NCBI GenBank assembly: GCA_963716475.1
Contig: OY970314.1
Coordinates: 237,226 to 301,225 of the forward strand
DNA length: 64,000 nt
Direction: 5' to 3'
Origin: Candidatus Woesebacteria bacterium
GTDB lineage: Bacteria > Patescibacteriota > Microgenomatia > UBA8517
Shown piece by piece: positions 6,165 to 27,544 of the stretch; the stretch's first letter is position 1, and every line of letters starts with the position of its first letter. The notes below the pieces were generated by a model, which worked only from the letters and a program-made list of their open reading frames with translations, was not told the origin of the DNA and did not search any database. The position numbers and the translations under genes are program-made.

Positions 6165-8807
6165 TTAAATTTCCCCTTCTTCCCCGCCTTTTTCAAGAAC
6201 TGCAGCGGCGGCCACATTATCGCTTTTATCTGCAAAGCGCATAAGAATTACTCCTTGGGTGGCACGCCCAAGTTCAGGAATATTTTTAAGAGGTAATTTA
6301 ATTACCTGTCCCATCTTGCTGGTAATTATCACCTGATCAAAATTTTGTGTAACCATTATTGCCGTTTTAAGATTTCCGGTTTTGGGATTAACTACGGAAG
6401 CCTTAACTCCTTTGCCTGCTCTTTTTTGAACCGGGAAGAGATGTATTGGGGTACGTTTCCCAAGTCCCTTTTCGGCTATCGTCAGGATATCCCTGAAAAA
6501 CTTCTTTCTTTTGTCGGCCGGAACCGTTTCTTTTCCGGGGAAGACCTCCATGCCGATAACTTCATCATCCTTTTCCAATTTTATTCCGGTGACTCCGGTG
6601 GTGGCTCGTCCCATTGGTCTGACATTTGCCTCCGGGAATCTTATTGATTTTGCACCCTTAGTTAGAATAATGATGTGGTCATCCCCCGTCGTAGGATGTA
6701 CCGAAACCAGTTGATCATCAGTACGAAGTTTTATTGCAATAAGTCCCGATGCCCTCAGGTTTTCAAATTCGGATAAAGACGTCTTTTTAATAATCCCTGT
6801 TTTGGTCGCCATGATCAAATGCTTAATTCCCAACTCTTTGGTAAGCGGCACCATGGATTTAATTTCCTCCCCCTGCTCAAGGTTTAACAAATTAACTAAG
6901 GCTTGTCCTTTTGCCTGACGCGAACTTTCGGGAATTTCCCAAGCTTTCAGACCGAAAACACGGCCTTTGTTGGTAAAGAAAAGAATTGTGTCGTGAGTGG
7001 TGGCGTCGATCATGTGCTCTATTTCATCTTCCTCTTTAGTTGCCATCCCGATAACTCCCTTGCCCCCTCTTCTTTGGGCTCTGTATGCTCCTGCCGAAAG
7101 ACGTTTGATGTAACCGGTCCTGGTTACCGTGATCAGGGTTTCTTCTTTGGCAACCAAGTCTTCTTCGCTGAATTCTCCCACAGCGTGTTTATAAATTTTG
7201 GTGCGTCTGGCGTCGCCGTATTTGGCCTTAAGTTCGGCAAGTTCGGTAACTATGATATCGAGAACCCTCTTGGGATCTTTCAAAATAGCGGTCAGAGCAT
7301 CAATCAGTTTCTTTATTTCCGCATATTCCGTTTCAATCTTCTCGCGTTCCAAGGCGGCAAGGCGCCTAAGCTGCATGTCAAGGATTGCAGTTGCCTGAAT
7401 ATCGCTCAAACCAAACCGGGAAATTAAATTTTTCTTGGCATCTTCCTGGGTTCTGCTTTCCCTGATGGTTTTAATAACGGCGTCAAGATTATCGAGAGCA
7501 ATCTTAAGCCCTTCCAAAATGTGGGCTCTCTTTTTGGCTTCGGTTAAATCAAAAATGGTTCTTCTCGTCACCACTCTTTGTCTGTGTTTTACATACTCGA
7601 CCAAAATTTGCTTGAGGTTAAGGGTATGGGGAGTGCCGTCAACCAGGGCCACGAAATTTGCGGAGAATGAACTTTGTAGTTTTGTGTGTTTGAAAAGATT
7701 ATTCAGGACCGATTTTGGTTTTGCATCACGCTTTAGGTCTACCGCAACTCTCATTCCGTCCTTGTCGCTTTCGTCCCTGAGATCGGCGATACCGATAACT
7801 TTTTTGTCTTTAACAAGTTCGGCAATTTTGGCCACAAGTTCGGCCTTATTTACCTGATAAGGAAGTTCGGTAATAATAATTTGCTGTTTGCCTTTGGCAC
7901 CTTCGACTATTTCGGCAATTCCACGGACAACAATGCGTCCCCTACCTGTGGCGTAAACTTCGTTAAGAGAAGCAGCGTCATAAATTACGCCACCTGTCGG
8001 AAAATCCGGACCGGGAACTATTTTTACCAAATCTTCTATAGAAATATCGCTTTCAAAACTGATTTCGCTTGGAGTGACTTCTTCCTGTGTTAACGCCTTT
8101 TCGGCACCGCTGGCAACAAGGTTAATCTTTTTAATAATAAAATCCGTATGGGTTTCCTGGTCTTTTATTTCAGGTACCTCAAAATTGGATTTAATTACAC
8201 GGCCTTTCTTAATTATTTCGGATATGGCGTCTACAAGTTCGCTTAAGTTGTGGGGCGGAATTTTGGTGGCCATCCCGACCGCGATTCCCTCGCTGCCCAT
8301 CAGAAGTAAATTGGGTAAAAGTGCCGGAAGATAAACCGGTTCTTTAAGGGTGGCGTCAAAATTGTCTATAAAGTCCACAGTTTCTTTCTCCATATCTACG
8401 AGAATACTGTCCGCAATTTTGGCAAGTTTTACCTCGGTGTAACGCATGGCAGCCGGCGGATCCCCGTCTACCGAGCCGAAGTTTCCCTGCCCGTGAACCA
8501 GGGGGTAGCGCATGGAAAAAGTCTGGGCAAGACGTACCATAGCGTCGTAAACCGCCATATCCCCGTGCGGATGGTATTTACCTAAAACTTCTCCGACCAC
8601 CTTGGCGCTTTTGGTGGTGCCTGATTGGGAAAAGTGAAGACCCATAAGGTGCATGGCATATAGGATGCGTCTGTGGACCGGCTTGAGGCCGTCCCTGACG
8701 TCCGGAAGGGCGCGGGCGACGATAACACTCATTGCATAATCAAGATAAGATGTAGATAACTCTGAAGTTATTTCAGTTGAGAGAACTTTACCGATATCAG
8801 TGGACAT
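6165..8807 (-). CDS. gyrA: DNA gyrase subunit A
   Basis: [34 protein letters not shown], and C-terminal beta-pinwheel repeats. Confidence 0.95.
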
Positions 8808-8867: not shown

Positions 8868-9254
8868 CTAAACCGTGTCCTCAGGGGGTTTTTGATCTTC
8901 CTCTTTAGTTTCTTCTTCGGCTTTGGGTTCCTCCGGTTTTGGCTGATCCTCTGTCGGGGATTGATTATTTTTCTTACCGGATCGGAAGATAACGTAGCCG
9001 ATAACTGCAATCACCACCAAAACTCCAAGGCTAATCTTTTTGTGCGTCATTATCCACTGAATGGTGCTTTGTGGTGCCGGAGTTGCGGTAACCGGTGTGA
9101 TTGTTGGTTCAATAGTCGGTGCGATAGTTGCAACCGCTGTCGGTTCAACAGTGGCTTTGGCCGCGGCGGCCAAAACAGTAAATGGAACGGCAAGTGAACC
9201 AAGAAGGACAGCGGAGGTTACTGCAGCTGCGATAGTCTTTTGAAAAATCTTCAT
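8868..9254 (-). CDS. small Pro/Thr-rich surface protein with C-terminal THK-TM-FR-KK anchor
   Basis: Signal peptide, PT-rich linker (TVEPTAVATIAPTIEPTITPVTATPAP), then WIMTHKKISLGVLVVIAVIGYVIFRSGKK; this anchor resembles the C-terminus of the 10844..11752 protein. Confidence 0.55.
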   Translation of the reverse strand: MKIFQKTIAAAVTSAVLLGSLAVPFTVLAAAAKATVEPTAVATIAPTIEPTITPVTATPAPQSTIQWIMTHKKISLGVLVVIAVIGYVIFRSGKKNNQSPTEDQPKPEEPKAEEETKEEDQKPPEDTV

Positions 9255-9261
9255 GTTTCTT

Positions 9262-9302
9262 TCAGCTAACTTGCATTATACATAGAGAAATGTATCTGTC
9301 AA
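9262..9302 (-). promoter_or_regulatory. sigma70-type promoter (TTGACA-16-TATAAT) for the 8868..9254 gene
   Basis: Reverse complement reads cTTGACAgatacatttctctatgTATAATgc, 20 nt before the ATG. Confidence 0.45.
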
Positions 9303-9880
9303 GTCGTCAGTCTGGCCTTAATTACGGCACGCTGACCATCAAAGAGTCCCCAGCATGTGTAAATAGTTAATTCTTCAGCGTTGGTTGGAGAAACAAGGTC
9401 TACCCTATCCGGCCCTACGAAATATTTTTGATCTGCAACGTAGTTATATATTTTGCCGCTTTTGGTCTTAATAATAATTTTTTGACCCAGACTAAGGTAT
9501 GGCAGGTTACCAAAAATGATCTTTTTATTGTGTCCGTAGATGACGGTATTTCCCCCACTCCCCGGGGCGGCCGATGTGTTTAAAAATGTTGCAACAGAGT
9601 CGGAAATGAGCCAAACACCGTTCTTAATTTGTCCGGGTTCAACTTTAAGATCAATTTGAATCGAGGGAATAATAATTTCGGCCGGAATATCCATATTCGC
9701 TGTCGAGGTTGCCACAGCTTCGGGAACCTTTGAGAATGAGAGAATTCTGACACGGTAATAATTTACCGCGCCAAAAGAAAAAATGAGTAAACCGGCGAGA
9801 ATTAAAAATAACGGAGCTCTGTTATTTCTTTGAAGCTTTTTTGAGACCTTTGAGACCGAATGCTGAGAGTGTTGCACCAA
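9299..9880 (-). CDS. sortase-family transpeptidase
   Basis: N-terminal TM; His in VIYGHNKK; catalytic Cys in LTIYTCWG; downstream Arg (RAVIKARL), consistent with the sortase His-Cys-Arg triad. Confidence 0.7.
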   Translation of the reverse strand: MVQHSQHSVSKVSKKLQRNNRAPLFLILAGLLIFSFGAVNYYRVRILSFSKVPEAVATSTANMDIPAEIIIPSIQIDLKVEPGQIKNGVWLISDSVATFLNTSAAPGSGGNTVIYGHNKKIIFGNLPYLSLGQKIIIKTKSGKIYNYVADQKYFVGPDRVDLVSPTNAEELTIYTCWGLFDGQRAVIKARLTT

Positions 9881-10781
9881 TACCCATTATAGCCTGATAG
9901 AAGACCTCTGCAAAGGATCCTGTTCCTGCCATTGTTGAGGCACCTAAAACCTGTCCGCCTGTTCCTGTTCCTGCAGGGGTTCCGGGATCTCCTGGCATAC
10001 AATCGTTAACTGCATTGACTGCAAAGTGGTAACCGACTCCGGGCGTAAGACCGTTGATAGTATATGAAGTGACATTTCCTGTGTTGGCTACACCGTACTG
10101 ATAACCGGGGGCACTTCCGTAAACGATTGAGTAATATGTTGCATTAGCAACAGCGCTCCAGGTTAGTATTTCGCTATTTCCTGTACGGACTGCTGAAAGA
10201 ATAGTAGGTGTTCCGGGCTTTGTGGCATTGCATACTGAGGGACCCGCTTGGCTGGACGAATTTCCACCTTCGTTTGAAGGACCGGGTGTGGCTTCGGGTG
10301 TAGGACTAGGTGTAGCATTTGGCTCACAATCTACGATCGGAGCGTCGTTGCAAGCGACTGTCTGTGTATCAGCGGGCACAGTTTTCTGACAACTATTCCC
10401 TACATGGGTATAATCAGCAGGACAACCTGTTGGAGCGGTATGTTCGGGATTAATATCGTTATTGTTTCTGTGGCAACGCTCGTTCCAATTTCCATTATTT
10501 TGCCAATGATAACCGATTGGACAAATACCGTCTGCGTATTCGGTATGGCTTGTTGAACACTCATCATCACTTCCGTTATGATGTTCACAAATCTGGGTCT
10601 TGGTTCCTACACTCGAACCACATTGGGTTGCAACACAATCGGAGGTATCAACCCACCTATTATCAGTATGAGACGTGCCGGCTGAGACTGAGGTTAGGGA
10701 TTTTCCAAGAAGAAAAGCGGCTACAGCCAATACGGCTGTCAGGGCTAAAACTGAAGCTTTACCTGGATTAAATTTGCTCAT
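9822..10781 (-). CDS. Cys-rich secreted surface protein with fibronectin type III domain and C-terminal sorting signal
   Basis: Signal peptide; Cys/His/Trp-rich region; FN3-like TILSAVRTGNSEILTWSAVANATYYSIVYG...GLTPGVGYHFAVNAVN; C-terminus GQVLGASTMAGTGS + hydrophobic stretch + KKASKK. Confidence 0.65.
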   Translation of the reverse strand: MSKFNPGKASVLALTAVLAVAAFLLGKSLTSVSAGTSHTDNRWVDTSDCVATQCGSSVGTKTQICEHHNGSDDECSTSHTEYADGICPIGYHWQNNGNWNERCHRNNNDINPEHTAPTGCPADYTHVGNSCQKTVPADTQTVACNDAPIVDCEPNATPSPTPEATPGPSNEGGNSSSQAGPSVCNATKPGTPTILSAVRTGNSEILTWSAVANATYYSIVYGSAPGYQYGVANTGNVTSYTINGLTPGVGYHFAVNAVNDCMPGDPGTPAGTGTGGQVLGASTMAGTGSFAEVFYQAIMGIGATLSAFGLKGLKKASKK

Positions 10782-10843
10782 ATTTTTATGAACTGGGCTA
10801 TGATATCAGCGATTTCTCAGCTTGTCAAGTACTAACCTATAGG

Positions 10844-11752
10844 TTACGTACTTTTCTTTCTGAAGAGCAGGTAGCCGATTACTATAAGAACCAATACGAC
10901 TCCGAAAGAAATTAATTTGTGTGTCGAAATCCAGTTGCCAAACCCGGAACTTGTGGCCGTGGCGGATACGCCCGTGGCTATTGGGGAAGCTGTTGCGCTT
11001 GGGGTCGGGGTAACTTTGGTTCCTAATACGGATCCTGTTCCTTTCTCTTTAGGAAGGACTGTTACTTTGCCGGAAACAGGTGCGCTTGATGCGCCAAGAA
11101 CCTGAACTGTTGCTCCTGTGTCCCCAACCAGGCCCGACGAGTTGCCTGCGTGATCAATTGCTCTGATGTTGTAGTAATACTCTACGGTAGGATCAAGACC
11201 ATTGTCGTCCCACGTCATTGTATCTCCGGGGTTTCCGCCTGCTTCTACAAGCCTGTGGGAATCATCCGCGTTGAACCCGGCTACCGTACCTCTATATATA
11301 ATTACTTTTGTGTAATCGCTATCCAGCGGGTTTTTCCAGTGAATTTTATAGGTAGTTCCGCCTGCCATTCTGTCCTTTCCGAAGTCAGAAACAGACCCCG
11401 GAGCGGTTGTATCCAAGGTTACCGCCGTTTCACTTGATACTCCGTCTACAATGACCTCAAACCAGAATTTTCCTTCCGATCCAAACTGATACCCGTTTAC
11501 CTGAACCAGACACTGGTTTACCGTCAAATTAATGGCCGGTCCAAAGGCGACGTAGCTTCCTCCATCTTTCTTCGAATAAAACTGTGCGTTGGTTCCGTTG
11601 GAAGTACAGGAAAGTTTAAAATCCGTATAGTTGATATACCCCGGCAATGTTTGGATTTGGACAATAGTTGCAGCATGAGCAGAGCTTACAAATAAAGCCA
11701 AGCCTACCAAACCGCCAAGTAACGAAACAACTATTTTGTTAATTTTTTGCAT
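10844..11752 (-). CDS. secreted FN3-like surface protein with sorting signal and THK-TM anchor
   Basis: Signal peptide (AHA cleavage); FN3-like (YKIHWKNP...EYYYNIRAIDHAGNSSG); VQVLGASS...LPKEKGTGS; C-terminal ISTHKLISFGVVLVLIVIGYLLFRKKST. Confidence 0.65.
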   Translation of the reverse strand: MQKINKIVVSLLGGLVGLALFVSSAHAATIVQIQTLPGYINYTDFKLSCTSNGTNAQFYSKKDGGSYVAFGPAINLTVNQCLVQVNGYQFGSEGKFWFEVIVDGVSSETAVTLDTTAPGSVSDFGKDRMAGGTTYKIHWKNPLDSDYTKVIIYRGTVAGFNADDSHRLVEAGGNPGDTMTWDDNGLDPTVEYYYNIRAIDHAGNSSGLVGDTGATVQVLGASSAPVSGKVTVLPKEKGTGSVLGTKVTPTPSATASPIATGVSATATSSGFGNWISTHKLISFGVVLVLIVIGYLLFRKKST

Positions 11753-14700
11753 GTTTTTTGGTTCCTTTCTTTAGGCTGTACCCCCTCATAAAAAGTCCGA
11801 TTCCCAACGCGCTTAAAGCGAACATGAGTACTTCAGTCGGGCTTCCAGTTCCCGGAAGTTCTGTGGATGCGCCCAATACCTGTCCCTGCAAGTTTCCGCC
11901 GTAGCTATTGCCGTTGCCGATCGTAACGGTAGAATTAGCTTGGGAACAATCTTCGGTGAGACTGGTGTTGTATGTTGCTGTACAGCCTGCGAAGTTTTGA
12001 TAACTTCCGTTCGAAAGAGACGAATCGGTTGTAACCCTGTATGAAAGCGCAACTACCGCACCCGCAGCAAGCGGTCCGAAGTTCCATGTTAATCTGGATC
12101 CGTTTACTGTCGGATCCGTGCCTGTTACGCCTGATGTGGAATTTGTGATGTAAGTAAACCCGCCGGGCAAGATATCGGTAATCTGCACATTACTGAAGTT
12201 AACGTTTCCGTTATTTGTGATTGTCAAAGTATAGGTCACTTGATTTCCTGCATTGATTCCGCCACCGGAATTATTGGACTTTGCAATAGTAATGCTGGGA
12301 TTTTGCCAGGTGTTGGTTATGGTACAAGTCGCACTTTCCCCATTTCCTACCTCTAGCTCTGTACAGTTGTCGTATGAGGCTAGATAACTATCCACTGCCG
12401 GTTCTGTAACAGTATATGTTCCCACATTAACCAGGGATTCGTTTTGCCCGTCAGCCGGATCAAAAGTTATCGCGGTGCCTCCGTTTATCCGGAATGAGAA
12501 ATCGTCAAATGTTGCGTCTCCTCCACTGATTACTTTTTTGACAATTAGCGTTCCAGGCTGGTCATCATTGGTAATGGTGCAGGTCCTGGTTTCTCCTATG
12601 GTGATTGTTCCGGAACAATCTGTTCCGAGTGTCTTGGTATAACCGGCAAAATCTTCCTCGTTAACGGAGTAGTCTCCTGCGTCCAGGGTTACTGTCGTTC
12701 CGGGGTTTTCGGCTCCTGCGAAAGACGGGTCGGAAACATTTGTCCCTGTGACGTTCATCGTGAAGTCCCCGGCCAGTGCCTGCCCGCCGTTATCAGTAAT
12801 TACATGCTTGATGACGGTTAATTGCGGAGATACATCGTTATTGGTAATTGTGCAGGTTTTGGAATCGGCAAGAGTTAAGGTTATTGAACCGTTAGCTGTA
12901 CAATCCCCTCCCCAGTCGGAAGCTGAATAGCCGGGCAAGTTTATTTCACTCGCGTTATGGGCACCTATTGTGAATGGATTAAAATCACCGCTGGTAACTG
13001 TTGTGCTGTCAACTTTAAGGACAAAATCAGCTACGTTTTTGGTACCACCATGGTCATTATTAACTGTTTTGACAAGTTTAAGTTGGGGAGCAATTGCGGT
13101 ATTCGTTATGGTGCAGGTCTTTGTTTCGCCCAAAGCTATGGTTCCGGAACAACCCGCCGAGTCCGACTGAGTGTAGCCTGAAGGGCCGGATTCCGTAACA
13201 TTATATGTTCCAACTGTTGTCAGGGTTTTATTCACTCCACTTTCGCTTCCTGCAAAGGAGTTTCCACCGATTGCAGTTACTCCGCCGATTGTCATGGTAA
13301 AGTCGGCGGCCGTATTTATCGATGCGGTTACTCCATTATTAACGTGCTTAATAACAATTAAATGAGCTGCCTGATCGCTATTGCTTATTGTACAAATGGC
13401 ATTTTGAGCGAGCCCCAAGGTTATAGTACTGCCGGACAAATTACCGATATCGCAGGACCAACTTCCGTCTTGGGCATATCCTGCCAGGTTTGATTCGGAC
13501 AATGTGTATCCAACCCCCGCCGTTACCGCATGGAACGTAGCGGAATCGCCGGTATCAGTGAAGCCGTTAGCATCACCCGTTGCAGTTAAATTCCAATTTG
13601 CCGGTACGGCGCCTCCGCCGTAATTGTTTGCAACTACCTTAACCAATTTTAAAGTTGGGGCAATGTCATCGTTTGTGATAGTGCAAGTTGCTTCCTGGTT
13701 AATTCCGAGAGTAATATTGGAACCGTTTTGTGTCCCTCCCGCACAGACCCAATTACCTGCCGTATAACCGCCGGGATTTGTTTCACTTAAAGCGAAAGTA
13801 TCGGCTTTTAGTGTCGCACCCGAATCAACCGGGCTTGTCCCACTTAGGTCATTTGATCCTGTACCGTTTGCGGTAAGTGTGAAGTTAGCAACCGTGGCAG
13901 CTCCCCCGTTATTATTTACAACAATTTTTCGGAGGTGAAGTATTGGGGCAATATCGTTATTTGTTATGGTGCAGGTGGCAGATTCACCTAACCCGAGGGT
14001 TATATCATTTCCAAATTGATATCCTCCAACGCAGACCCAAGAGCTCGCGTTGTAGCCGCCGGGACCTGATTCAGATAATGCGTATGTACCGGTAGAGAAG
14101 GTGTCACCGCTATCAACAGGAGTTGTGCCACTTAATGGTGTTGCACCTGCAGCCGATAAAGTCCAAGCTGTTGCTGGCGCTGTACCACCATTATCATTAA
14201 CGATAACTTTTCGGAGCTGAAGAGCCGGTGCATTGTCGTTATTTGTTATAGTGCAGGTTGCCGTTCCGCCGTTCGCGATTACAACACCCGAGCAATTGTC
14301 ATACGAAGTTGTATAGCCGGTAAAAGGAGCTTCCGTAACATTATATGTCCCTGCATTTACAGTTAAATCATTTTCTGCATGGAGGTTATCGGTACTCTGG
14401 CTAAAAGTAATTGGATTCCCTCCGTTGACCGAAAAAGTAAAGTCGTTAGCATTTTCGCCCCCACCGTTATTGTTAATCACTACTTTCTTAACTTTCAAGG
14501 TTGCGGTCTTATCGTTGTTGTTAATAGTACAAGTTGCGCTGTCGCCCCCGGCGAGAGTGATTGAGCTTCCGGTTACGGCTTGCCCTCCATTTTTAACACA
14601 ACTCCAATCTCCGGCTGTGTAGCCTGCGGGAGTTGCCGATTCTGAAAGAGTATAAGTTCCAATTCCAACTGAGGCGTTTGTGACATTCGTGCTTCCGGTA

Positions 14701-16409
14701 GCCCCGGAAATTGTATTTGGACCGGTTGCTGTAAGTGTCCAATCTGTTGCAGCTGCCGCTCCCCCATTATCATTTGTTATTGTTTTGACAAGTGTTAAGT
14801 GTGCATTTTGAACAGTGTTGGTGATTGTGCAAAGAATATCTTGGTCGAATGCGGCATTTAGGGTCCAGGGATTTGTTCCTGTTACTGAAACTGGTGTTTG
14901 TGTTTCACTAATTACGCAGGAGACAGCCGACGTATAGTTACTTAGGGAAGTATCTGTTCCAGACGTTTCCCCGATGGAATTTGAACCAGCCGTGACCCCG
15001 ATTTTTCCTGTATCTCCACCATTCCCAATGTTTGTTGCCTTTGTGTTCCCATTCACCTGCAAATTAAATAATCCAGAATCACTTGAAGGAGAAAGAGTTT
15101 TGACTATCTCAATCGATGATGGTGGAACGGGAATGTCTACGGTAAAACCATCTTGGCAATTGCATTTAGATTTCGTCCCAGGGACGGCATCATTTGGCGA
15201 GCTGCATGCACCATCGTTTTGTTGCCAGCTAGTACAATAAGGGAGTTTTAGAAAGCCACTGCTATCTGGATTGCAAGTTGCAGTCATTGTTATGGAGATT
15301 GTCCCGGTTCCGGCACTGCTTATGTCTCCACAAGAATCAGTACCACTTTCTGTAAAAGGTGCAGGAGTACTCGGTAAAATTGTACCCGAGCATAACCCAT
15401 GCAATGCGCTTGTTTGACCATTTGTTGCAAACCAAAGGCCTACATTATAGCGATCACTTGCATTTGAGTGTATTTGCCAATTGGCTGTAAAATTTACGGT
15501 GTCGCCGGGAAATCTACATCCATGACCGTTAATTACAATTCCTGAGACGGAAGCAAGCGAGATGTCGTCAGCTGTGCAAACGAGTCCACTTGGAGATTTG
15601 GTTTGGTCTTGTACACACGCAATATTACTTAAAGTTGTGGCTGATGCACTATCATTAAATGTTGTTGTGGCTACAACTCTCTCCAAATCCTTAATCTCAA
15701 CTTGATAATTTGGCCTGTAGTTGCTGTCAAGTTGGTAGGAATAAACTATCTCGCCTTTATCATTTGCGGTTACGGAACCGGTAAAATTAACAGCCGGGGC
15801 ATCGGAAGAAGTTATATTAATAGTGTAGGTTTTCCCCGTGATGAACCCTACCCCTGTGATTAAGACTGAATCTGTGGGTGCGTAATCAAGCTTATCTGTG
15901 GCTATCGTGGCACTTCCGTCTGTTTGGTATGTAATATCGAATTGATCAATTGTGGAGGTGTCTACTGCGGTGTTTTGTAAAATAGTGGCTGATATATGGC
16001 CATTTTCAACCGGAGCCTCGGAAGTTAATATCGGGCTGGAGATTGGCTGATCCGAGGCAGGAGGACCCTGGACCGTTGGATTGCTCTCAGGTGCCTGGGT
16101 TACTACCGGTTGGTCGGAAGGAGTTGGTGTTACCATATCCGTTGCGGCGGGTGTATCTTCAGGGGTAGGGGTTGCAATCTCTGCGGGCGTAGCATCGGGT
16201 ACAGCCGTGGGAGTGGAGGTGTCGGTTGGCGCAATTGTGGTTTGATTAGCCGATGCATCTGTGTCTATCGGTTGGACAGTCGCTTCAGGAACCGGAGTGG
16301 GAGTTGCTTCCTGGGCTAAAACGGTAAGAGGTGCAGCAAGGGAATTAAAAAGAAGCGCACTAGTGGCGATCACCGACAGGATTTTATTGAAATTAAGCTT
16401 AAATTTCAC
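11739..16409 (-). CDS. giant (1556 aa) LPxTG-type cell-wall-anchored repeat adhesin
   Basis: Signal peptide; about 12 tandem ~100-110 aa repeats (L.L.K.V.NDNGG...W.L.A.G...Y.LSE...GY...W.C...ATCTITN.D); C-terminal DUF11-like block (VTYTLTITNNGNVNFSNVQITDILPGGFTY); C-terminus QVLGASTELPGTGSP + hydrophobic + KKGTKKHAKN. Confidence 0.8.
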   Translation of the reverse strand: MKFKLNFNKILSVIATSALLFNSLAAPLTVLAQEATPTPVPEATVQPIDTDASANQTTIAPTDTSTPTAVPDATPAEIATPTPEDTPAATDMVTPTPSDQPVVTQAPESNPTVQGPPASDQPISSPILTSEAPVENGHISATILQNTAVDTSTIDQFDITYQTDGSATIATDKLDYAPTDSVLITGVGFITGKTYTINITSSDAPAVNFTGSVTANDKGEIVYSYQLDSNYRPNYQVEIKDLERVVATTTFNDSASATTLSNIACVQDQTKSPSGLVCTADDISLASVSGIVINGHGCRFPGDTVNFTANWQIHSNASDRYNVGLWFATNGQTSALHGLCSGTILPSTPAPFTESGTDSCGDISSAGTGTISITMTATCNPDSSGFLKLPYCTSWQQNDGACSSPNDAVPGTKSKCNCQDGFTVDIPVPPSSIEIVKTLSPSSDSGLFNLQVNGNTKATNIGNGGDTGKIGVTAGSNSIGETSGTDTSLSNYTSAVSCVISETQTPVSVTGTNPWTLNAAFDQDILCTITNTVQNAHLTLVKTITNDNGGAAAATDWTLTATGPNTISGATGSTNVTNASVGIGTYTLSESATPAGYTAGDWSCVKNGGQAVTGSSITLAGGDSATCTINNNDKTATLKVKKVVINNNGGGENANDFTFSVNGGNPITFSQSTDNLHAENDLTVNAGTYNVTEAPFTGYTTSYDNCSGVVIANGGTATCTITNNDNAPALQLRKVIVNDNGGTAPATAWTLSAAGATPLSGTTPVDSGDTFSTGTYALSESGPGGYNASSWVCVGGYQFGNDITLGLGESATCTITNNDIAPILHLRKIVVNNNGGAATVANFTLTANGTGSNDLSGTSPVDSGATLKADTFALSETNPGGYTAGNWVCAGGTQNGSNITLGINQEATCTITNDDIAPTLKLVKVVANNYGGGAVPANWNLTATGDANGFTDTGDSATFHAVTAGVGYTLSESNLAGYAQDGSWSCDIGNLSGSTITLGLAQNAICTISNSDQAAHLIVIKHVNNGVTASINTAADFTMTIGGVTAIGGNSFAGSESGVNKTLTTVGTYNVTESGPSGYTQSDSAGCSGTIALGETKTCTITNTAIAPQLKLVKTVNNDHGGTKNVADFVLKVDSTTVTSGDFNPFTIGAHNASEINLPGYSASDWGGDCTANGSITLTLADSKTCTITNNDVSPQLTVIKHVITDNGGQALAGDFTMNVTGTNVSDPSFAGAENPGTTVTLDAGDYSVNEEDFAGYTKTLGTDCSGTITIGETRTCTITNDDQPGTLIVKKVISGGDATFDDFSFRINGGTAITFDPADGQNESLVNVGTYTVTEPAVDSYLASYDNCTELEVGNGESATCTITNTWQNPSITIAKSNNSGGGINAGNQVTYTLTITNNGNVNFSNVQITDILPGGFTYITNSTSGVTGTDPTVNGSRLTWNFGPLAAGAVVALSYRVTTDSSLSNGSYQNFAGCTATYNTSLTEDCSQANSTVTIGNGNSYGGNLQGQVLGASTELPGTGSPTEVLMFALSALGIGLFMRGYSLKKGTKKHAKN

Positions 16410-21902: not shown

Positions 21903-24695
21903 TTATGGAGTATTCCAGAAAGAAATATTAGCGTAACTTTGGGAGGTCTTGGGCGTAGCGCTACCAACATTTGGTATAGTAAGCGTGTCACCACTATTGT
22001 TGTAAGAATCTAGCGCGCTGATAAATGGTTGTATTCCTAACCCTGACGAATAAGCTGCGTCTGCCTGTGAAATTATAAGTTGAATATTTGACGGACACCC
22101 AAAGGCTGCGCAATTAAGTTTGGCTGCAACGAGCTGTTGAAGCAAAGTCATTCTGGATTGATCTACGGAATTTCTTTTGGCACCGGTGGATGTTTTAGGA
22201 ATGCTAGAATAAAAGGCTCCAAACAGTTGGCTGAGTCCTGCAGATGGTGTGTTGGTGATAGTTCCTTTATGTATATTAGTTGCTGGTGAAAGATTCACAC
22301 CGATATAAAACGGATGCTCATTAAATATGAATGAGGTGAAGCTGGTATGTGTTTGCCAGAAACCGAGAGTTCTTGAGGGACTTAGTTTCTTGTTGGCAAA
22401 GGTACAAGTGATGTTTTTACCTGCGGTCAAATTTATAGTTGCGCTAAGCGTGGAATATGTGGTATTTGCATAAGATAGTGAAGTATCGTTGTCGATACAC
22501 GAGATTCCATTCGGTACCCAGAACACATTTGGCTCTGTTTCACCGATTGTAAAGGATCCCGGGAGCAGTTTATTGAAAACTTTGGTATTTAGGCTGCTGC
22601 CGTCATCGATAAGAGAAAAAGGTCCCAACGCCCCACCGCTAAATGAAAAACTCTCTATATCATTCGGTTGTGCATCTTTGATGATAGTAATGCTTCCGTA
22701 TCTGGTATTTGTAATGGTGCATGATTTTGCGTCTCCGGCGATTAATGTTACTGAACCATCTGATGCGCAATCCCCTGCTATAGTCGGACTGTAATTAGAT
22801 AAAGCCGTATTTGTCCCTGCTACCTCTCCAGCGGCATGCTTACCTGCGGTCACAATTACTGCGCCGGTTGTTCCCCTATCTGATACATCAGTAATTTTTG
22901 TAGAACCGTCTATCTGTAGGTCAAAAAGGCCGCCATCGGTACTCGGAAGTAAAACCTTATTTACTGTTAGTGTGGTTAAACTAAAAGGCTCGCACGCAGA
23001 GTCGCCGGCCGTATAATTGTTATCCCCAACATAGTGAGCGATAAAGGAGAATAAACCGTTTGATAAAGGACCTTCGGAACTGGATATTGCAGTTCCAGGA
23101 TCTTTGTTATCCAAGGGAATACTCCCGGCAGACGAACCTGTTGGGGTACATGCTCCATTAGTAAAGAAGGAAAAGTCAACATTTCCACTGGGCTCAAGCC
23201 CTGTTACTCCAATCCCTGCAACAGTTGCCTTATCGTAAACAGTCGAAGTAGAAGCATCTGTCGTTATGATACTGTTATCAAAATTATGAAGTTCTGTGCT
23301 AATTGTCGGAGTAGCTTGGTTCACTGTCAAATTTTCGCACGAGCTGTCGCCAGATAAATAATTTATGTCACCGTTATAGTGAGCCTTGAATGAATATGAA
23401 CCCGTGGAAAGTGGACCCCTACTGTTTGATGGATGGGCAATCCCGCTAGAAAGAACAACAGTCCCCGCAGAAGTATTTCCGGTTGAACAATCGCCACTTG
23501 TGTAGAAAGTAAAATCAACACTTCCGGTTGGAATTCCAAAAGCCCCGGAAGATGTGGCTTGGTCATGAACTGTGGACCCTAATGCAACAGGACCACTTAC
23601 TATACTTTCATTAGCCAAATGAATTTGTGTAGAAATATCTGGTGTAATTTGGTTTACCGTTAACAATTCACACAAGCTATCAGCGGGATTATTATTATCG
23701 TTACCTTCATAATGAGCGATAAATGAATATGTTCCCGCATTCAGTGGTCCTTCGCTATCGGACGGATGAGCTGTTCCGTCTGACAAAGTTACAATTCCTG
23801 CCGAACTTCCCGCATCTTCTGTACAACTACTATTTGGGTAGAAAGTAAAATCAACATTTCCGGTCGGATTATACCCTCCGGATATTGTGGCGCTGTCGTG
23901 AACGGTGGACCCGGCGTCAACTGATGTAATGGGGTTGTGTTCTGGATCATGAATGGTGGTGGAAAGAGTTGGAGACGCTTTATCGATAGTAACTGCTTCG
24001 TTACTGCAATTATCCGTAACAGGGTTATTGTTTGAATCTCCGTTATATGTTGCAATCCAGTGGTAGGTACCCGCCATTAGCGTGGTGTAGCCAGCTGAAG
24101 TTGAAGAACCATTTATTAGAGGCACCTCCACGTCTGTAAATACCGGCGTGTTTGAACAAGTCGAATCATTTGTATCATAAAGATTGAAAGTTACGGTTCC
24201 CGAAGGATCAGATCCCCCGCTAACAGTGGCGGTATCATAGATTTGTATACCCACCACTCCGCCGGCTGAAGGAGTAGTATAAATAGTCGGACTGGCTTTT
24301 TCAGTACCTGTACAATACAAACTTGCGGATTTTGTTTCGAAATTCGAATCAACTCTGTAGTGTGGCCCCCCTGTCCAGGTTGCTAGATCTAGGGTGTAAC
24401 TTGCAGGACTTGTTGACCCAAAAGGGATAGTTTTAAATATTAGGGGATCTGCCGGTACGAATTGGGTTCCATTTCCACCATGTTTATCGTAGAGAGTCAA
24501 AACAATTCCATCGTCCGGAATGATCCCGGTAAAGGTAACTTGTCCTGTTCCGTTACAATCTGCGCTAATGCCGGTAATTGCAAAAGTTGGCGTTTGTGCA
24601 AATGTTGTACTTTGCCTAAAAATACCTAGACGTGTCGTGACGAATCCCAGGAAGAAGACCAAACAAGCAGTGGCAGTCAATAACTTTTTAAACAT
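21903..24695 (-). CDS. large secreted protein (930 aa) with tandem Ig-like repeats and DUF11/prealbumin-like domain
   Basis: Signal peptide; about four ~110-aa repeats (..STVHDQATSSG..TGSVDFTFY..G.C......AGTV.LS.G.AHPS.S.GPL..G.YSF.AHY.GD.NY...S.CE.LTVNQ); then LTVNKVLLPSTDGGLFDLQIDGSTK...SCTITNTRYGSITIIK; no C-terminal sorting signal. Confidence 0.8.
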   Translation of the reverse strand: MFKKLLTATACLVFFLGFVTTRLGIFRQSTTFAQTPTFAITGISADCNGTGQVTFTGIIPDDGIVLTLYDKHGGNGTQFVPADPLIFKTIPFGSTSPASYTLDLATWTGGPHYRVDSNFETKSASLYCTGTEKASPTIYTTPSAGGVVGIQIYDTATVSGGSDPSGTVTFNLYDTNDSTCSNTPVFTDVEVPLINGSSTSAGYTTLMAGTYHWIATYNGDSNNNPVTDNCSNEAVTIDKASPTLSTTIHDPEHNPITSVDAGSTVHDSATISGGYNPTGNVDFTFYPNSSCTEDAGSSAGIVTLSDGTAHPSDSEGPLNAGTYSFIAHYEGNDNNNPADSLCELLTVNQITPDISTQIHLANESIVSGPVALGSTVHDQATSSGAFGIPTGSVDFTFYTSGDCSTGNTSAGTVVLSSGIAHPSNSRGPLSTGSYSFKAHYNGDINYLSGDSSCENLTVNQATPTISTELHNFDNSIITTDASTSTVYDKATVAGIGVTGLEPSGNVDFSFFTNGACTPTGSSAGSIPLDNKDPGTAISSSEGPLSNGLFSFIAHYVGDNNYTAGDSACEPFSLTTLTVNKVLLPSTDGGLFDLQIDGSTKITDVSDRGTTGAVIVTAGKHAAGEVAGTNTALSNYSPTIAGDCASDGSVTLIAGDAKSCTITNTRYGSITIIKDAQPNDIESFSFSGGALGPFSLIDDGSSLNTKVFNKLLPGSFTIGETEPNVFWVPNGISCIDNDTSLSYANTTYSTLSATINLTAGKNITCTFANKKLSPSRTLGFWQTHTSFTSFIFNEHPFYIGVNLSPATNIHKGTITNTPSAGLSQLFGAFYSSIPKTSTGAKRNSVDQSRMTLLQQLVAAKLNCAAFGCPSNIQLIISQADAAYSSGLGIQPFISALDSYNNSGDTLTIPNVGSATPKTSQSYANISFWNTP

Positions 24696-24710
24696 CCTTT
24701 GCTTAGAACA

Positions 24711-24739
24711 TATATAGGTTGTGTAAGATGTTCTGTCAA
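24711..24739 (-). promoter_or_regulatory. strong sigma70-type promoter (TTGACA-17-TATATA) of the 930-aa protein gene
   Basis: Reverse complement reads TTGACAgaacatcttacacaaccTATATAtgttctaagcaaaggATG; shares the spacer core TTACACAACCTATA with the 16533..16562 promoter. Confidence 0.5.
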
Positions 24740-24808
24740 TATCTCAAAATATATCGTTTTTGTCCTATTACCATTCATGATATATATCCTCTGAGCGTAA
24801 ATTATGAG

Positions 24809-24843
24809 TATCAAAAAAGCAGGTAGTCTTTCGTCTCCCTGCA
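24809..24843 (+). repeat. intergenic motif, copy i (doubles as minus-strand intrinsic-terminator-like hairpin)
   Basis: atcaaaaaagcaggtagtctttcgtctccctgcag: GCAGG..CCTGC stem; reverse strand gives stem + T6 right after the sipW-like stop. Confidence 0.45.
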
Positions 24844-24845
24844 GT

Positions 24846-25901
24846 TTAATTTCCCGGGGTTGTGGTAGGTTCTTGAGGCGGGGTTTCAGTCGGCGTAGGG
24901 CTTGGCGTTGGTGTTGGAGGCACTGTTGGTTCTATGGTTGGTAACACTACTGACTCACCGGCAACCTGTGGTTCTGGAGATTTGCATGGTCCCACATAAT
25001 CTTCTTCGTGTCCTGCTTTTGGAGTTCCGTTTTCGTCAAAATGTCCATTTAATGCTTGGGGTGGAATTTCTAGGGTAATATAATTCGCCGGCTCATCTTT
25101 TCTTCCGGCAACATGGCATATTGTGATTTTTTCTGATGGTGTTGGTTCCCAGTTACCGGCAGTAAACGAATTACCTAAACTTAAATCGTGATCAGTAAAG
25201 TACGATGAAGATACTCCAGCTAAAACAAAAAATATTGCAAATATGGGAATTACCATTGAGACTTTGTTTGTGCCATTATCCTCTTCCGAAACTTTTATTT
25301 TTTTTAATAAAAAACCAATTCGCTTTATTGATTCTTTCTTTAGATATTTTAGCTCTTCATATACAATAATAGTTGCTGGAACGATCACCAGAAGTATAAA
25401 TATTTTTGGATCTTTAGCGGAATTTGCCGCATACCCCAAAAACGGTATACCGATTATTACTTTGCCAACTATCTGACTAGGTTTTATTTGCGCACCATCA
25501 ATAGCGGAATTTGCATCGCCTCTTGTTGTATAACTCCCCATTATCACAGAAACTATTCTGTGAGTTATAAAGGATTCTGAGTCTGCGGAATTTTTAAATG
25601 TAACAACGTCGCCAGTTTTGTAATTTTTAAGAGGTGATGAAAAGACAATAGATCCGGTTTGAATTGTCGGTTGCATGGAACCTGACGTAACAATATAAAC
25701 ACTTGGAATACCGGCAATATTTTTAATATCTAAAGATGAAAGATATAAATGATTTTTTACCAAAAATATCCCGACTAAAGCGCCAGTTTCCAATAAGACC
25801 AGCAACAAAAGAGAGGCCAAAATTATATCGTAGATTTTTTTAGACATTTGCCCAATAGATTGCGCGAATACAACCGCGATAACAATCGTATCCGTGTTCA
25901 C
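24846..25901 (-). CDS. SipW-like type I signal peptidase (S26) with C-terminal TM/Pro-Thr-rich extension
   Basis: SGSMQPTIQTGSIVF (Ser box) and downstream His region; N-terminal TM; extra C-terminal TM segments and PTPTPSPTPTETPPQEPTTTPGN tail; GTG start. Confidence 0.65.
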   Translation of the reverse strand: MNTDTIVIAVVFAQSIGQMSKKIYDIILASLLLLVLLETGALVGIFLVKNHLYLSSLDIKNIAGIPSVYIVTSGSMQPTIQTGSIVFSSPLKNYKTGDVVTFKNSADSESFITHRIVSVIMGSYTTRGDANSAIDGAQIKPSQIVGKVIIGIPFLGYAANSAKDPKIFILLVIVPATIIVYEELKYLKKESIKRIGFLLKKIKVSEEDNGTNKVSMVIPIFAIFFVLAGVSSSYFTDHDLSLGNSFTAGNWEPTPSEKITICHVAGRKDEPANYITLEIPPQALNGHFDENGTPKAGHEEDYVGPCKSPEPQVAGESVVLPTIEPTVPPTPTPSPTPTETPPQEPTTTPGN

Positions 25902-26919: not shown

Positions 26920-26945
26920 ACACAAAAAGGAGGGGGCGCTTTTAG
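26920..26945 (+). repeat. intergenic motif, copy j
   Basis: acacaaaaaggagggggcgcttttag; overlaps the stop of the second sortase gene. Confidence 0.35.
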
Positions 26946-27544
26946 TAGACTTGGTTTGCAATGACGATGAGGCGGTCGAGGGTGGTGCCCGGGGGGTAAC
27001 AGGTTTGCATAGTAAGAGTGTTTTTATCCGGGTTTCCGGTCAGATATTGACTATCATTTGGGGCTACCACTTTTACCTGATCGACTAAATATTTATATTT
27101 TGTGCCTTGATAGTAAATAAATACTTCATCCCCTTTTGTAAGTTTTCCGAGAAGGTAAAAAACGGCATTATAAGTATTGACGTTATAAAAGGCATCCGTC
27201 GAGTGGGCAAAGATATAAACATTTCCCTTACTTCCCGGCAGTGCAGTCCCTTTTGCCTGGGCTACCCCGCGCTTTAAGGCTTTCAGATATTCGGTTTTAT
27301 TTTGTGAATCGACATTGGCAACGACGGGGGCTACGGCGTCAATTTTGGGGATGATTATGGAAAAATCCGTATTAGGGGGTGTCAGGACTTTTGCAGGAGT
27401 GACTGTTTGTTCATCCGCGATTATGAATTTATTGCCGACAGCTTGGTTATAGTTATATTTGATTTCTTCCTTGGCAACGGGCCAGAAAATTGCAACCAAA
27501 ACGACAAGAGCAACAGCAATTAAAATGGTACCGGCGATCTTCAT
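26942..27544 (-). CDS. sortase-family transpeptidase (second copy)
   Basis: N-terminal TM; NVYIFAHS (His); LTMQTCYPPG (catalytic Cys); TLDRLIV (Arg). Confidence 0.7.
   Translation of the reverse strand: MKIAGTILIAVALVVLVAIFWPVAKEEIKYNYNQAVGNKFIIADEQTVTPAKVLTPPNTDFSIIIPKIDAVAPVVANVDSQNKTEYLKALKRGVAQAKGTALPGSKGNVYIFAHSTDAFYNVNTYNAVFYLLGKLTKGDEVFIYYQGTKYKYLVDQVKVVAPNDSQYLTGNPDKNTLTMQTCYPPGTTLDRLIVIANQVY

What the first reader, a model, noticed from the sequence alone, without database searches (positions are those of the whole stretch)
8868..11752. Second shared C-terminal anchor (W-I-x-T-H-K-x-I-S-x-G-V-x-L-V-x-I-x-I-G-Y-x-x-F-R...KK) on two proteins
The 128-aa PT-rich protein ends ...TIQWIMTHKKISLGVLVVIAVIGYVIFRSGKK, and the 302-aa FN3 protein ends ...GNWISTHKLISFGVVLVLIVIGYLLFRKKST after its QVLGAS/GTGS element. 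The near-identical TM-anchor residues (THK, G, IGY, FR) look like a conserved C-terminal sorting/anchoring tag distinct from LPxTG and PEP-CTERM. It could be a membrane-retention signal or the recognition tag of a different processing enzyme.
Basis: seen in the sequence. Interest (0 to 1): 0.5.

Follow-up and report, generated by a model that had tools for sequence, protein, structure and literature searches.

The report
Conserved membrane-anchor tail on CPR surface proteins
Two neighbouring surface proteins of a tiny uncultured bacterium (Candidatus Woesebacteria) share a real, strongly conserved tail (W-I-L-T-H-K-K-I-S-L-G, a membrane helix, then basic residues) that no database model describes, that recurs on unrelated surface proteins in this lineage, and that most likely pins them in the cell membrane without needing sortase.

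Summary
The shared tail is real and far beyond chance. A tail profile built only from orthologues found elsewhere scores the window's 128-aa protein at 54 bits and the 302-aa protein at 41 bits. The next best segment in the window scores 6 bits. One detail is wrong: the 128-aa protein does not end at ...GKK. It carries 33 more conserved, acidic, proline-rich residues.

The conserved core is [K/N]-W-[IV]-[LM]-T-H-K-K-I-S-[LI]-G, then about 10 hydrophobic residues, Tyr, and a basic cluster. "IG" and "FR" are not conserved.

A search of 1.84 billion proteins found 47 carriers of 80-2131 aa, all with the tail at or within about 35 residues of the C-terminus:
- tandem-FN3 proteins;
- signal-peptide-plus-stalk mini-proteins;
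- FN3 proteins related to the window's MAGTGS protein;
- large adhesin-like proteins related to the window's LPGTG adhesin.

No Pfam or NCBIfam model covers the tail. It is confined to Woesebacteria, Levyibacteriota and relatives, at 1-2 copies per genome, usually in a sortase/adhesin island between gyrB and gyrA.

Sortase activity tracks LPxTG substrates, not this tail, and one carrier has no sortase nearby. Best reading: a sortase-independent, retained membrane anchor whose juxtamembrane motif is recognised by an unknown partner. Cleavage by a dedicated enzyme is not excluded.

The parts
10847..10933 (-). THKK-type tail of the 302-aa protein: WISTHKLISFG, a TM helix with Tyr, then RKKST at the extreme C-terminus
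   Evidence: Translation. Scores 40.9 bits against the orthologue tail HMM. AlphaFold2 predicts a helix at 271-277, a break at H278 and a helix at 279-301.
10844..11752 (-). 'fn302': signal peptide, two FN3-like beta-sandwich domains, a disordered stalk and the THKK tail. Its start overlaps the adhesin stop by 14 nt.
   Evidence: ORF. 108 homologues. AF2 mean pLDDT 85 with domains above 95. Foldseek gives tandem FN3. The 14-nt overlap is conserved in L047 and L048.
11018..11056 (-). Conserved short linear motif LPKEKGTGSVLGT (family consensus LPKE-x(1-4)-GSVLGTE) in the disordered stalk of fn302. Function unknown.
   Evidence: Translation. Column conservation: L 65/77, P 74/77, G 75/77, L 77/77, G 76/77. 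pLDDT below 50.
8970..9056 (-). THKK-type tail of the 128-aa protein: WIMTHKKISLG, a TM helix with Tyr, then RSGKK
   Evidence: Translation. Scores 54.4 bits against the tail HMM built without this family.
8871..8969 (-). 33-residue acidic, Pro-rich cytoplasmic extension after the basic cluster of the 128-aa protein
   Evidence: Translation. Invariant E/P/K positions across 9 orthologues.
8868..9254 (-). 'tail128': signal peptide, Pro/Thr stalk, THKK tail and cytoplasmic extension, with no folded ectodomain. The N-terminus resembles the adhesin N-terminus.
   Evidence: ORF. Orthologues. N-terminal similarity of 41-51% to adhesin-family N-termini.
9299..9880 (-). Sortase B' (LTIYTCWG type), paired with the MAGTGS protein
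   Evidence: Pfam Sortase, 6e-20. The same pairing recurs in L003/L027, L044 and L046.
9822..10781 (-). 'fn319': FN3 protein ending QVLGASTMAGTGS, a TM helix and a basic cluster (sortase-type signal). Relatives elsewhere carry the THKK tail instead.
   Evidence: Pfam fn3. P0120, P0122, P0145 and P0152 are 41-45% identical in the FN3 region and carry the THKK tail.
11739..16409 (-). 1556-aa SpaA_2/DUF11 adhesin ending QVLGASTELPGTGS, a TM helix and a basic cluster. Relatives elsewhere carry the THKK tail instead of LPxTG.
   Evidence: P0128 and P0153 are 59% identical over the N-terminal 250 aa but end in the THKK tail and have no LPxTG.
26942..27544 (-). Sortase A' (TLxQTCYPPGT type). It is the enzyme that normally sits directly upstream of the LP[AG]TG adhesin in related genomes.
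   Evidence: tblastn 66% to the L043 sortase. Catalytic-site alignment.

Best explanation
The tail is a lineage-specific C-terminal membrane-anchor module of secreted surface proteins in Woesebacteria and related Microgenomates.

Proposed mechanism:
- After Sec export through an N-terminal signal peptide, the hydrophobic helix and the cytoplasmic Lys/Arg cluster act as a stop-transfer anchor.
- The ectodomain is then held on a disordered Pro/Thr stalk above the cytoplasmic membrane.
- The nearly invariant juxtamembrane motif W-[IV]-[LM]-T-H-K-K-I-S-[LI]-G sits at the outer membrane interface. Together with a Gly, a Leu and a Tyr inside the helix, it is a recognition surface for a partner not yet identified: a membrane protein, self-association, or anionic envelope components.
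- The module is a sortase-independent alternative to LPxTG/MAGTG wall sorting. Homologous adhesins and FN3 proteins carry either a sortase signal or this tail.
- Where the adhesin has LPxTG, a separate tail-anchored tandem-FN3 protein (fn302) is always encoded immediately after it.

Shown: the motif, its modularity, its distribution, the gene linkage and the sortase correlations. Inferred: the topology, retention in the mature protein, and the existence of a partner.
For: 1. Modularity. 47 profile hits in 1.84e9 proteins, all with the tail at or within about 35 residues of the C-terminus, on proteins of 80-2131 aa. Their ectodomains are unrelated: Beta_helix, CHB_HEX_C, MBG, Big_3_5, SpaA, fn3.

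2. Signal swapping. Relatives of the window's LPGTG adhesin (59% identical N-termini) and of its MAGTGS FN3 protein (41-45%) end in this tail, with no LPxTG and a single C-terminal TM.

3. Complementary pattern. In every locus where the upstream gene is visible (17 non-redundant pairs aligned), fn302 with the tail directly follows an LP[AG]TG adhesin. Loci whose adhesin carries the tail itself (L043, L044, L046, L017) have no fn302.

4. Sortase independence.
- A' sortase has Cys->Gly in L019 and L044, is absent in L046, and is intact wherever an LPxTG adhesin is adjacent.
- P0150 has no sortase within 8 kb.
- Orthologues lacking the motif keep the sortase-adhesin-fn302 operon with a generic TM anchor.

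5. Retention.
- The 128-aa family has a conserved 33-residue cytoplasmic extension beyond the basic cluster, and several large carriers have similar extensions.
- The 128-aa ectodomain is only about 40 Pro/Thr-rich residues, which makes little sense as a released product.

6. Selection at protein level. The motif holds 3.8 bits per column, compared with 4.2 for LPxTG in the same loci. DNA identity between the two window copies is only 62%.

7. Structure. AF2 places two FN3 domains on a disordered stalk that ends in a kinked helix starting at the motif.
Against: - No experiment or proteomic datum shows that the helix stays on the mature protein.
- The tripartite layout (motif, TM, basic cluster) and a motif as conserved as LPxTG are exactly what cleaved sorting signals look like.
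- A motif this invariant on the outer face (His plus two Lys) is unusual for a plain stop-transfer anchor and implies a recognition event that I could not identify.
- Whole genomes were not available, so co-occurrence with a distant processing enzyme could not be tested.
- The loci are phylogenetically related, so the complementary pattern and the sortase correlations rest on few independent events.
- L043 keeps an intact A' sortase next to a tail-bearing adhesin.
Confidence: 0.55

Rival explanations
1. It is a cleaved C-terminal sorting signal of the PEP-CTERM / GlyGly-CTERM / MYXO-CTERM kind. A dedicated membrane peptidase or transpeptidase, encoded elsewhere in the genome, recognises WILTHKKISLG at the helix start, removes the helix and hands the protein to the wall, a lipid or the S-layer.
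For: - Tripartite architecture, with the motif abutting the helix as in exosortase- and rhombosortase-type signals.
- Found on unrelated secreted proteins.
- Motif conservation equal to LPxTG.
- Interchangeable with sortase signals in homologues.
Against: - Only 1-2 copies per genome. Contigs of 765 kb and 863 kb gave one locus each.
- No polytopic protease is conserved next to any of about 40 loci.
- Conserved cytoplasmic extensions of 10-35 residues follow the basic cluster in several families.
- The 128-aa protein would release only a 40-residue Pro/Thr peptide.
- No known CTERM model matches above threshold.
Confidence: 0.17
2. The tail marks acceptor or docking proteins for the neighbouring sortase. 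The membrane-proximal Lys of THKK (or the tail as a docking helix) lets sortase A' ligate the LPxTG adhesin onto membrane-anchored fn302 or tail128. The product would be a covalent, membrane-tethered adhesin equivalent to the single-chain tail-bearing adhesins.
For: - A sortase lies within the flank in 21 of 23 informative loci.
- The LPxTG adhesin and fn302 are translationally coupled by a 14-nt overlap or encoded in one frame.
- Split (LPxTG adhesin plus fn302) and single-chain (adhesin with tail) arrangements are complementary.
- H and the first K are invariant in 112 tails.
- tail128 sits 45 nt downstream of sortase B' in the window.
Against: - Orthologues of fn302 without THKK keep the same operon, and four of about 23 have only Arg, not Lys, before the helix.
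- Tail-bearing proteins exist with an inactivated sortase (L044, L019), without A' (L046), or with no sortase nearby (L050, L039).
- The tail is also on large adhesins that would have nothing to accept.
- Known sortase acceptor lysines lie in folded pilin domains (own knowledge).
Confidence: 0.12
3. Nothing special: the two window proteins are simple paralogues, or share a generic hydrophobic anchor, and the similarity reflects common descent or composition only.
For: - All carriers belong to one narrow lineage, and most sit in one gene island that also holds IS200-like transposase genes which could shuffle modules.
- tail128 looks like an adhesin with its middle deleted.
Against: - 54-bit cross-family match against a 6-bit background.
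- Outside the tail, the two window proteins were matched by BLAST only across their low-complexity Pro/Thr linkers and the tail (35% identity over 102 aa).
- H and K are invariant across four architectures while the DNA has diverged to 62%.
- The polar motif THKK-IS-G is not explained by hydrophobic composition.
- The tail has been lost or replaced in some close orthologues yet kept in 29%-identical ones.
Confidence: 0.08

Closest known systems
LPXTG-type cell-wall sorting signal and sortase (Gram-positive bacteria; sortase is near-ubiquitous in Microgenomates, PMC6744442)
   Same: It is a C-terminal module of motif, hydrophobic helix and basic cluster on signal-peptide-bearing surface proteins. 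It is encoded in the same operons and is interchangeable with LP[AG]TG/MAGTG signals in homologous proteins.
   Different: There is no LPxTG-like pentapeptide. The motif abuts the helix instead of lying a few residues before it. Sortase integrity follows LPxTG substrates, not this tail. Carriers exist without any nearby sortase.
Haft-type C-terminal sorting domains: PEP-CTERM/exosortase, GlyGly-CTERM/rhombosortase (PMC3237569), MYXO-CTERM/myxosortase (PMC11980579)
   Same: Tripartite architecture, a motif directly at the helix start, occurrence on otherwise unrelated secreted proteins, and restriction to one lineage.
   Different: No partner enzyme was identified. Only 1-2 carriers occur per genome, rather than several to dozens. 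Several carriers have conserved cytoplasmic extensions after the basic cluster. No NCBIfam CTERM model reaches its cut-off; the best are PFE-CTERM at 14.5 versus 24 bits and PID-CTERM at 11.3 versus 26 bits, both matching only the helix.
Plain C-terminal hydrophobic-tail membrane anchors of Gram-positive surface proteins (for example Listeria ActA; own knowledge)
   Same: Signal peptide, ectodomain, one C-terminal helix and cytoplasmic basic residues, with sortase-independent retention in the membrane.
   Different: Such anchors are not conserved as a transferable motif. Here an 11-residue polar/aromatic juxtamembrane motif is as conserved as LPxTG across unrelated carriers.
SafA, the small membrane protein genetically linked to actinobacterial housekeeping sortase (PMC9282373)
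   Same: The 128-aa protein is a small single-pass membrane protein encoded immediately downstream of a sortase in the window.
   Different: It has no FPW motif and no sequence similarity. In other genomes tail128 is not next to a sortase (L013, L030). Its tail is shared with large surface proteins, which SafA's is not.

Membership tests
Dedicated C-terminal protein-sorting domain (LPXTG / PEP-CTERM / GlyGly-CTERM class) | Tripartite layout: signature motif, transmembrane helix, basic cluster | tested here: met
   W-[IV]-[LM]-T-H-K-K-I-S-[LI]-G, about 17 hydrophobic residues, then K/R-rich end, in 112 non-redundant tails.
Dedicated C-terminal protein-sorting domain (LPXTG / PEP-CTERM / GlyGly-CTERM class) | Located at the extreme C-terminus | tested here: inconclusive
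   Most carriers end 0-4 residues after the basic cluster. The 128-aa family, P0119, P0127, P0141, P0148, L005, L009 and L039 carry 10-35 more residues, which are conserved in the 128-aa family.
Dedicated C-terminal protein-sorting domain (LPXTG / PEP-CTERM / GlyGly-CTERM class) | Carried by several otherwise unrelated secreted proteins | tested here: met
   There are four architecture classes with different Pfam content, all with N-terminal signal peptides.
Dedicated C-terminal protein-sorting domain (LPXTG / PEP-CTERM / GlyGly-CTERM class) | Multiple carriers per genome | tested here: not met
   Two in this 64-kb window. One locus each on contigs of 765 kb and 863 kb. Only 30 pattern matches in 185,579 species genomes. 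Caveat: the scans used one peptide pattern, not an HMM over whole genomes.
Dedicated C-terminal protein-sorting domain (LPXTG / PEP-CTERM / GlyGly-CTERM class) | Co-occurrence with a dedicated processing enzyme | not testable with these tools
   Whole genomes could not be profiled. In about 40 loci no conserved neighbouring peptidase other than sortases was seen.
LPXTG sortase substrate | LPxTG-like pentapeptide a few residues before the helix | tested here: not met
   Absent from both window tails and from single-TM large carriers. The stalk motif LPKE..GSVLGTE lies 30-45 residues upstream and has Glu where the scissile Thr would be.
LPXTG sortase substrate | Dependence on a cognate sortase (genomic proxy: an intact sortase co-occurs) | tested here: not met
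   A' sortase has Cys->Gly in L019 and L044 and is absent in L046. No sortase lies within 8 kb of P0150 or in L039.
Type I stop-transfer membrane anchor | N-terminal signal peptide plus a single C-terminal hydrophobic helix followed by cytoplasmic basic residues | tested here: met
   The sequences show it directly. AF2 predicts helices at 3-20 and 279-301. The hydrophobic-window scan finds a single C-terminal TM in large carriers.
Type I stop-transfer membrane anchor | The helix is retained in the mature protein | not testable with these tools
   Supported only indirectly, by the conserved cytoplasmic extension.
SafA-like sortase-associated small membrane protein (for the 128-aa protein) | Conserved FPW motif and constant adjacency to the housekeeping sortase (PMC9282373) | tested here: not met
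   No FPW in the 128-aa family alignment. Adjacent to sortase B' in the window, but not in L013, L030 or L011.

The most novel reading that the evidence does not exclude
The THKK tail is the recognition element of an undescribed envelope-assembly step in CPR bacteria. One version: a new sorting signal processed by an unidentified enzyme. The other: a protein-borne, membrane-proximal lysine acceptor onto which sortase ligates LPxTG adhesins, giving a protein surrogate for lipid II. In that version the split adhesin-plus-fn302 pair is covalently rebuilt into the same product as the single-chain tail-bearing adhesins.
Probability: 0.2. Interest if true: 0.75.

Novelty: new variant of a known kind. 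Interest (0 to 1): 0.42.

Why it matters
CPR/Patescibacteria are thought to live attached to other cells, and their surface proteins are almost entirely uncharacterised.

This tail defines a searchable marker, roughly 35 positions and 40-67 bits, for one class of their surface proteins. It shows that the same adhesin families switch between sortase-mediated wall anchoring and a conserved membrane anchor. It also points to an unknown partner that reads an 11-residue juxtamembrane motif as strictly as sortase reads LPxTG.

It would justify a new C-terminal domain model in Pfam or NCBIfam, and it gives a concrete handle for studying envelope organisation in organisms that cannot yet be cultured alone.

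Tried and rejected
- Word-indexed homology search with the tail profile returned a single hit. The index cannot seed on so short a query. The exhaustive HMMER search was needed.
- I first read P0157 and P0159 as Rosetta-stone fusions of adhesin and fn302. Inspection showed that they keep LPATG, TM and KKRK followed by the fn302 signal peptide. They are in-frame tandem ORFs, not domain fusions, so the fusion argument was dropped.
- Two genome hits, L007 (Ignavibacteriales) and L008 (Bacteroidales), are RND efflux pumps with W-V-[LM]-G-H-K-K-I-[ST] at an internal helix start. They were rejected as chance or convergent matches.
- The stalk motif LPKE..G was considered as a long-spacer sortase signal. 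It was rejected as unsupported: Glu replaces Thr, tail128 lacks it, and sortase integrity does not follow it.
- An RNA- or DNA-level cause for the conservation was rejected on codon divergence.
- The cluster-member look-up gave no taxonomy.
- The fold search of fn302 gave only generic tandem FN3 and no functional clue.
- The P0122 context look-up returned a 1.5-kb contig and was uninformative.
Full report
**What is in the window**

The finding lies in a minus-strand surface-protein cluster just upstream of gyrA (6165-8807). In transcription order the genes are as follows.
- A 1556-aa SpaA_2/DUF11 adhesin (11739-16409) that ends QVLGASTELPGTGS, a TM helix and a basic cluster.
- The 302-aa protein ('fn302', 10844-11752). 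Its start codon overlaps the adhesin stop by 14 nt.
- A 319-aa fn3 protein (9822-10781) that ends QVLGASTMAGTGS, a TM helix and a basic cluster.
- A 193-aa sortase (9299-9880).
- The 128-aa protein ('tail128', 8868-9254).
- A second sortase, of a different type, lies at 26942-27544.

Close homologues are annotated Candidatus Woesebacteria. The exact proteins occur on a 982,852-bp contig, so the window comes from a CPR (Microgenomates) genome of about 1 Mb.

**Checking the observation**

The two tails read WISTHKLISFGVVLVLIVIGYLLFRKKST (10847-10933) and WIMTHKKISLGVLVVIAVIGYVIFRSGKK (8970-9056).

I built an HMM only from tails of fn302 orthologues from other samples. It contained no window sequence and no tail128 sequence. 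Results:
- 54.4 bits for tail128 (E = 7e-10 even for a 1.8-billion-protein database);
- 40.9 bits for the window's own fn302;
- 5.9 bits for the next best of 1104 six-frame segments.

A six-frame regex finds exactly these two copies.

The two tail-coding stretches are only 62% identical in DNA. Only 9 of the 16 identical residues share a codon; Ser, for example, is TCT in one and AGC in the other. The identity is therefore kept by selection on the protein, not by recent duplication or conversion.

The 128-aa protein does not end at ...RSGKK. It continues for 33 acidic, proline-rich residues, which are conserved among its nine orthologue clusters.

At family level the conserved positions are W, T, H, K, K, I, S, L/I, G, one Leu, one Tyr about 20 residues after the Trp, and the terminal basic cluster. 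H and the first K are invariant in 112 non-redundant tails.

**Is it a tag or just two paralogues?**

fn302 has 108 homologues, and about 80 carry the motif. tail128 has a small orthologue family, and all members carry it.

A profile of the tail alone was scored against every one of 1.84 billion representative proteins. It found 47 proteins at E <= 1e-3, of 80 to 2131 residues, all with the tail at or within about 35 residues of the C-terminus. Besides fn302 and tail128, the carriers fall into two further groups.
- Large secreted proteins with Beta_helix, CHB_HEX_C/Fn3_assoc, MBG, Big_3_5, SdrD_B, SpaA-type and FN3-like domains. Their N-terminal 250 residues are 50-59% identical to the window's LPGTG adhesin. 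They end in this tail, with no LPxTG and a single C-terminal helix.
- FN3 proteins 41-45% identical to the window's MAGTGS protein that also end in the tail.

So both sortase-substrate families of this window have relatives in which the sortase signal is replaced by the THKK tail.

No Pfam or NCBIfam model matches the tail. A consensus tail gives only sub-threshold hits to PFE-CTERM and PID-CTERM over the helix, and to an RND-pump helix.

**Distribution**

A back-translated pattern scan of one genome per 185,579 species matched 30 stretches. Of the 11 confirmed, nine are CPR: Woesebacteria, Levyibacteriota and 'Patescibacteria group'. Several MAGs titled 'uncultured Gammaproteobacteria' have gyrA 81-86% identical to the window's. 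The other two confirmed matches are RND pumps.

JGI metagenomes gave 30 more loci. Contigs of 765 kb and 863 kb contributed one locus each. The tail is therefore rare, at about 1-2 per genome, and confined to one lineage.

**Gene context**

Across about 40 loci the common order is:

gyrB ... H+-PPase -> sortase A' (TLTLQTCYPPGT) -> adhesin (QVLGASTELP[AG]TGS) -> fn302 (THKK tail) -> [fn3 protein with MAGTGS -> sortase B' (LTIYTCWG)] -> [tail128] -> gyrA.

- A sortase lies within the fetched flank in 21 of 23 informative loci. The exceptions are L039 and L050.
- In every locus where the upstream gene is visible, fn302 directly follows an LP[AG]TG adhesin; 17 non-redundant pairs were aligned.
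- In loci whose adhesin itself carries the tail (L043, L044, L046, L017), fn302 is absent.
- In a further lineage, adhesin and fn302 are one open reading frame that still contains LPATG, TM and KKRK followed by the fn302 signal peptide (P0157, P0159, L005, L009, L039).

**Does the tail depend on the sortases?**

The evidence says no.
- In an alignment of 26 sortases, all A' enzymes next to an LP[AG]TG adhesin keep the catalytic Cys.
- The two A' genes with no such adhesin beside them have Gly at that position: L019 (fn3 protein and tail128 only) and L044 (adhesin with the THKK tail).
- L046, another tail-bearing-adhesin locus, has no A' at all. L043 keeps an intact one.
- P0150, a 1667-aa tail-bearing protein, lies between transporter and housekeeping genes with no sortase within 8 kb.
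- fn302 orthologues that lack the motif (P0077, P0096) keep the sortase-adhesin-fn302 operon and end in a generic helix preceded by a basic residue.

Hence fn302 is always membrane-anchored. The THKK motif is a clade-specific, transferable version of that anchor, and sortase A' serves the LPxTG adhesin rather than the tail.

**Structure**

AlphaFold2 with 80 homologues (mean pLDDT 85) gives, for fn302:
- a signal-peptide helix;
- two beta-sandwich domains (31-113 and 122-200, pLDDT above 95);
- a disordered stalk (210-270);
- a short helix at 271-277 (FGNWIST), a break at H278 and a helix at 279-301.

Foldseek against the PDB finds only tandem FN3 ectodomains of cell-surface receptors.

Within the disordered stalk, the motif LPKE-x(1-4)-GSVLGTE is nearly invariant (window 11018-11056). 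The large carriers have a related VLG[IAV]ST-x(3-8)-WPKLAY-x-G ... VLG[TA]ET element. I could not assign a function to either.

**How conserved is the motif compared with a real enzyme-recognition motif?**

I used the 17 non-redundant loci that encode both an LPxTG adhesin and a THKK fn302. The LPxTG pentapeptide holds 4.2 bits per column, and the 11-residue THKK motif holds 3.8. The helices behind them hold 2.8 and 2.7. The motif is thus constrained about as tightly as a sortase site, which argues for a specific recognition event.

**Interpretation**

The best-supported reading is a sortase-independent, retained type I membrane anchor. Its juxtamembrane motif is read by an unidentified partner, and the lineage uses it as an alternative to LPxTG/MAGTG wall sorting.

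Retention is inferred from three points:
- the conserved cytoplasmic extensions;
- the near absence of an ectodomain in tail128;
- the lack of any candidate processing enzyme.

It is not shown. The rivals are these.
- A genuinely cleaved sorting signal with a distant enzyme. This is favoured by the tripartite layout and the strength of the motif. It is disfavoured by the low copy number and the extensions.
- An acceptor or docking role for sortase-mediated ligation of the adhesin onto fn302. This is favoured by the tight adhesin-fn302 coupling and the invariant Lys. It is disfavoured by carriers without a functional sortase and by motif-less orthologues, some of which have Arg only.
- Simple paralogy, which searches exclude.

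**Comparison with the literature**

Sortase is reported as near-ubiquitous in Microgenomates (PMC6744442), and individual genomes note a sortase (PMC7143001). I found no description of this tail. The catalogue of C-terminal sorting domains (PMC3237569; bioRxiv 10.1101/2023.06.07.544157; PMC11980579) does not include it. SafA (PMC9282373) is a precedent for a small membrane protein linked to a sortase, but tail128 shares none of its defining features.

**Verdict**

This is a real, previously unmodelled C-terminal anchor domain, a new variant of a known kind. It is of moderate interest. It would become considerably more interesting if a processing enzyme or a sortase-acceptor role were demonstrated.

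Noticed in passing
P0157, P0159; L005:2-2596, L009:1-6165, L039:1494-8156: Adhesin and fn302 are encoded as one reading frame in these records. The frame still contains ...VLGAST..LPATG, a TM helix and KKRK, followed directly by the fn302 signal peptide, the FN3 domains and the THKK tail. This is a polyprotein-like precursor that sortase and signal peptidase would cut into the same two products as the split genes.
   Followed up: partly
L019:730-1347 and L044:7334-7945 (compare window 26942-27544): The A'-type sortase has Gly in place of the catalytic Cys (TLQTG, TIQTG) in exactly the two loci where no LP[AG]TG adhesin lies beside it. All others keep TLQTC. These are apparent pseudo-sortases, and they track loss of the substrate.
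   Followed up: partly
window 11739-11752; L047 and L048 8001-8014: The 14-nt overlap between the adhesin stop and the fn302 start is conserved in orthologous operons whose fn302 proteins are only about 40-49% identical to the window's. This suggests translational coupling.
   Followed up: partly
window 11018-11056 (fn302 residues 233-245); C-terminal regions of P0125-P0155: Nearly invariant linear motifs lie in a stalk that AlphaFold predicts to be disordered. fn302 has LPKE-x(1-4)-GSVLGTE. The large carriers have VLG[IAV]ST-x(3-8)-WPKLAY-x-G ... VLG[TA]ET. QVLGAST also precedes both the LPGTGS and the MAGTGS sortase signals in the window. Function is unknown.
   Followed up: partly
L019:3220-7431, L020:308-4519, L021:11878-15834, L024:12098-16054: The gyrA open reading frames are 1318-1403 aa here, against 880 aa in the window. 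They probably contain an intein.
   Followed up: no
L004, L011, L012 (records CAZWNZ010000001.1, CAZYCE010000005.1, CAZTGB010000009.1): These MAGs are titled 'uncultured Gammaproteobacteria', yet they carry the Woesebacteria-type island and a gyrA 81-86% identical to the window's. The taxon labels are evidently wrong.
   Followed up: partly
L044:4051-4722, L046:2071-2742; similar about 225-aa ORFs in L003:7500-8177, L016:314-1075, L017:4119-4796: Y1_Tnp (IS200-like) transposase genes recur inside the gyrB-gyrA surface-protein island. They may drive its rearrangements and the swapping of modules.
   Followed up: no
window 21903-26691 (minus strand, downstream of sortase A'): In the window, sortase A' is followed by three genes rather than by the adhesin: a 252-aa protein with a camelysin-like Peptidase_M73 N-terminus, a 351-aa protein with no family hit, and a 930-aa Big_3_5 protein. 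The adhesin lies 10 kb further on. About 13 kb of glycosyltransferase and polysaccharide-deacetylase genes separate H+-PPase from sortase A'.
   Followed up: partly
L007:363, L008:6010: RND efflux pumps of Ignavibacteriales and Bacteroidales have W-V-[LM]-G-H-K-K-I-[ST] at the start of an internal transmembrane helix. This is a chance or convergent match to the tail motif.
   Followed up: partly
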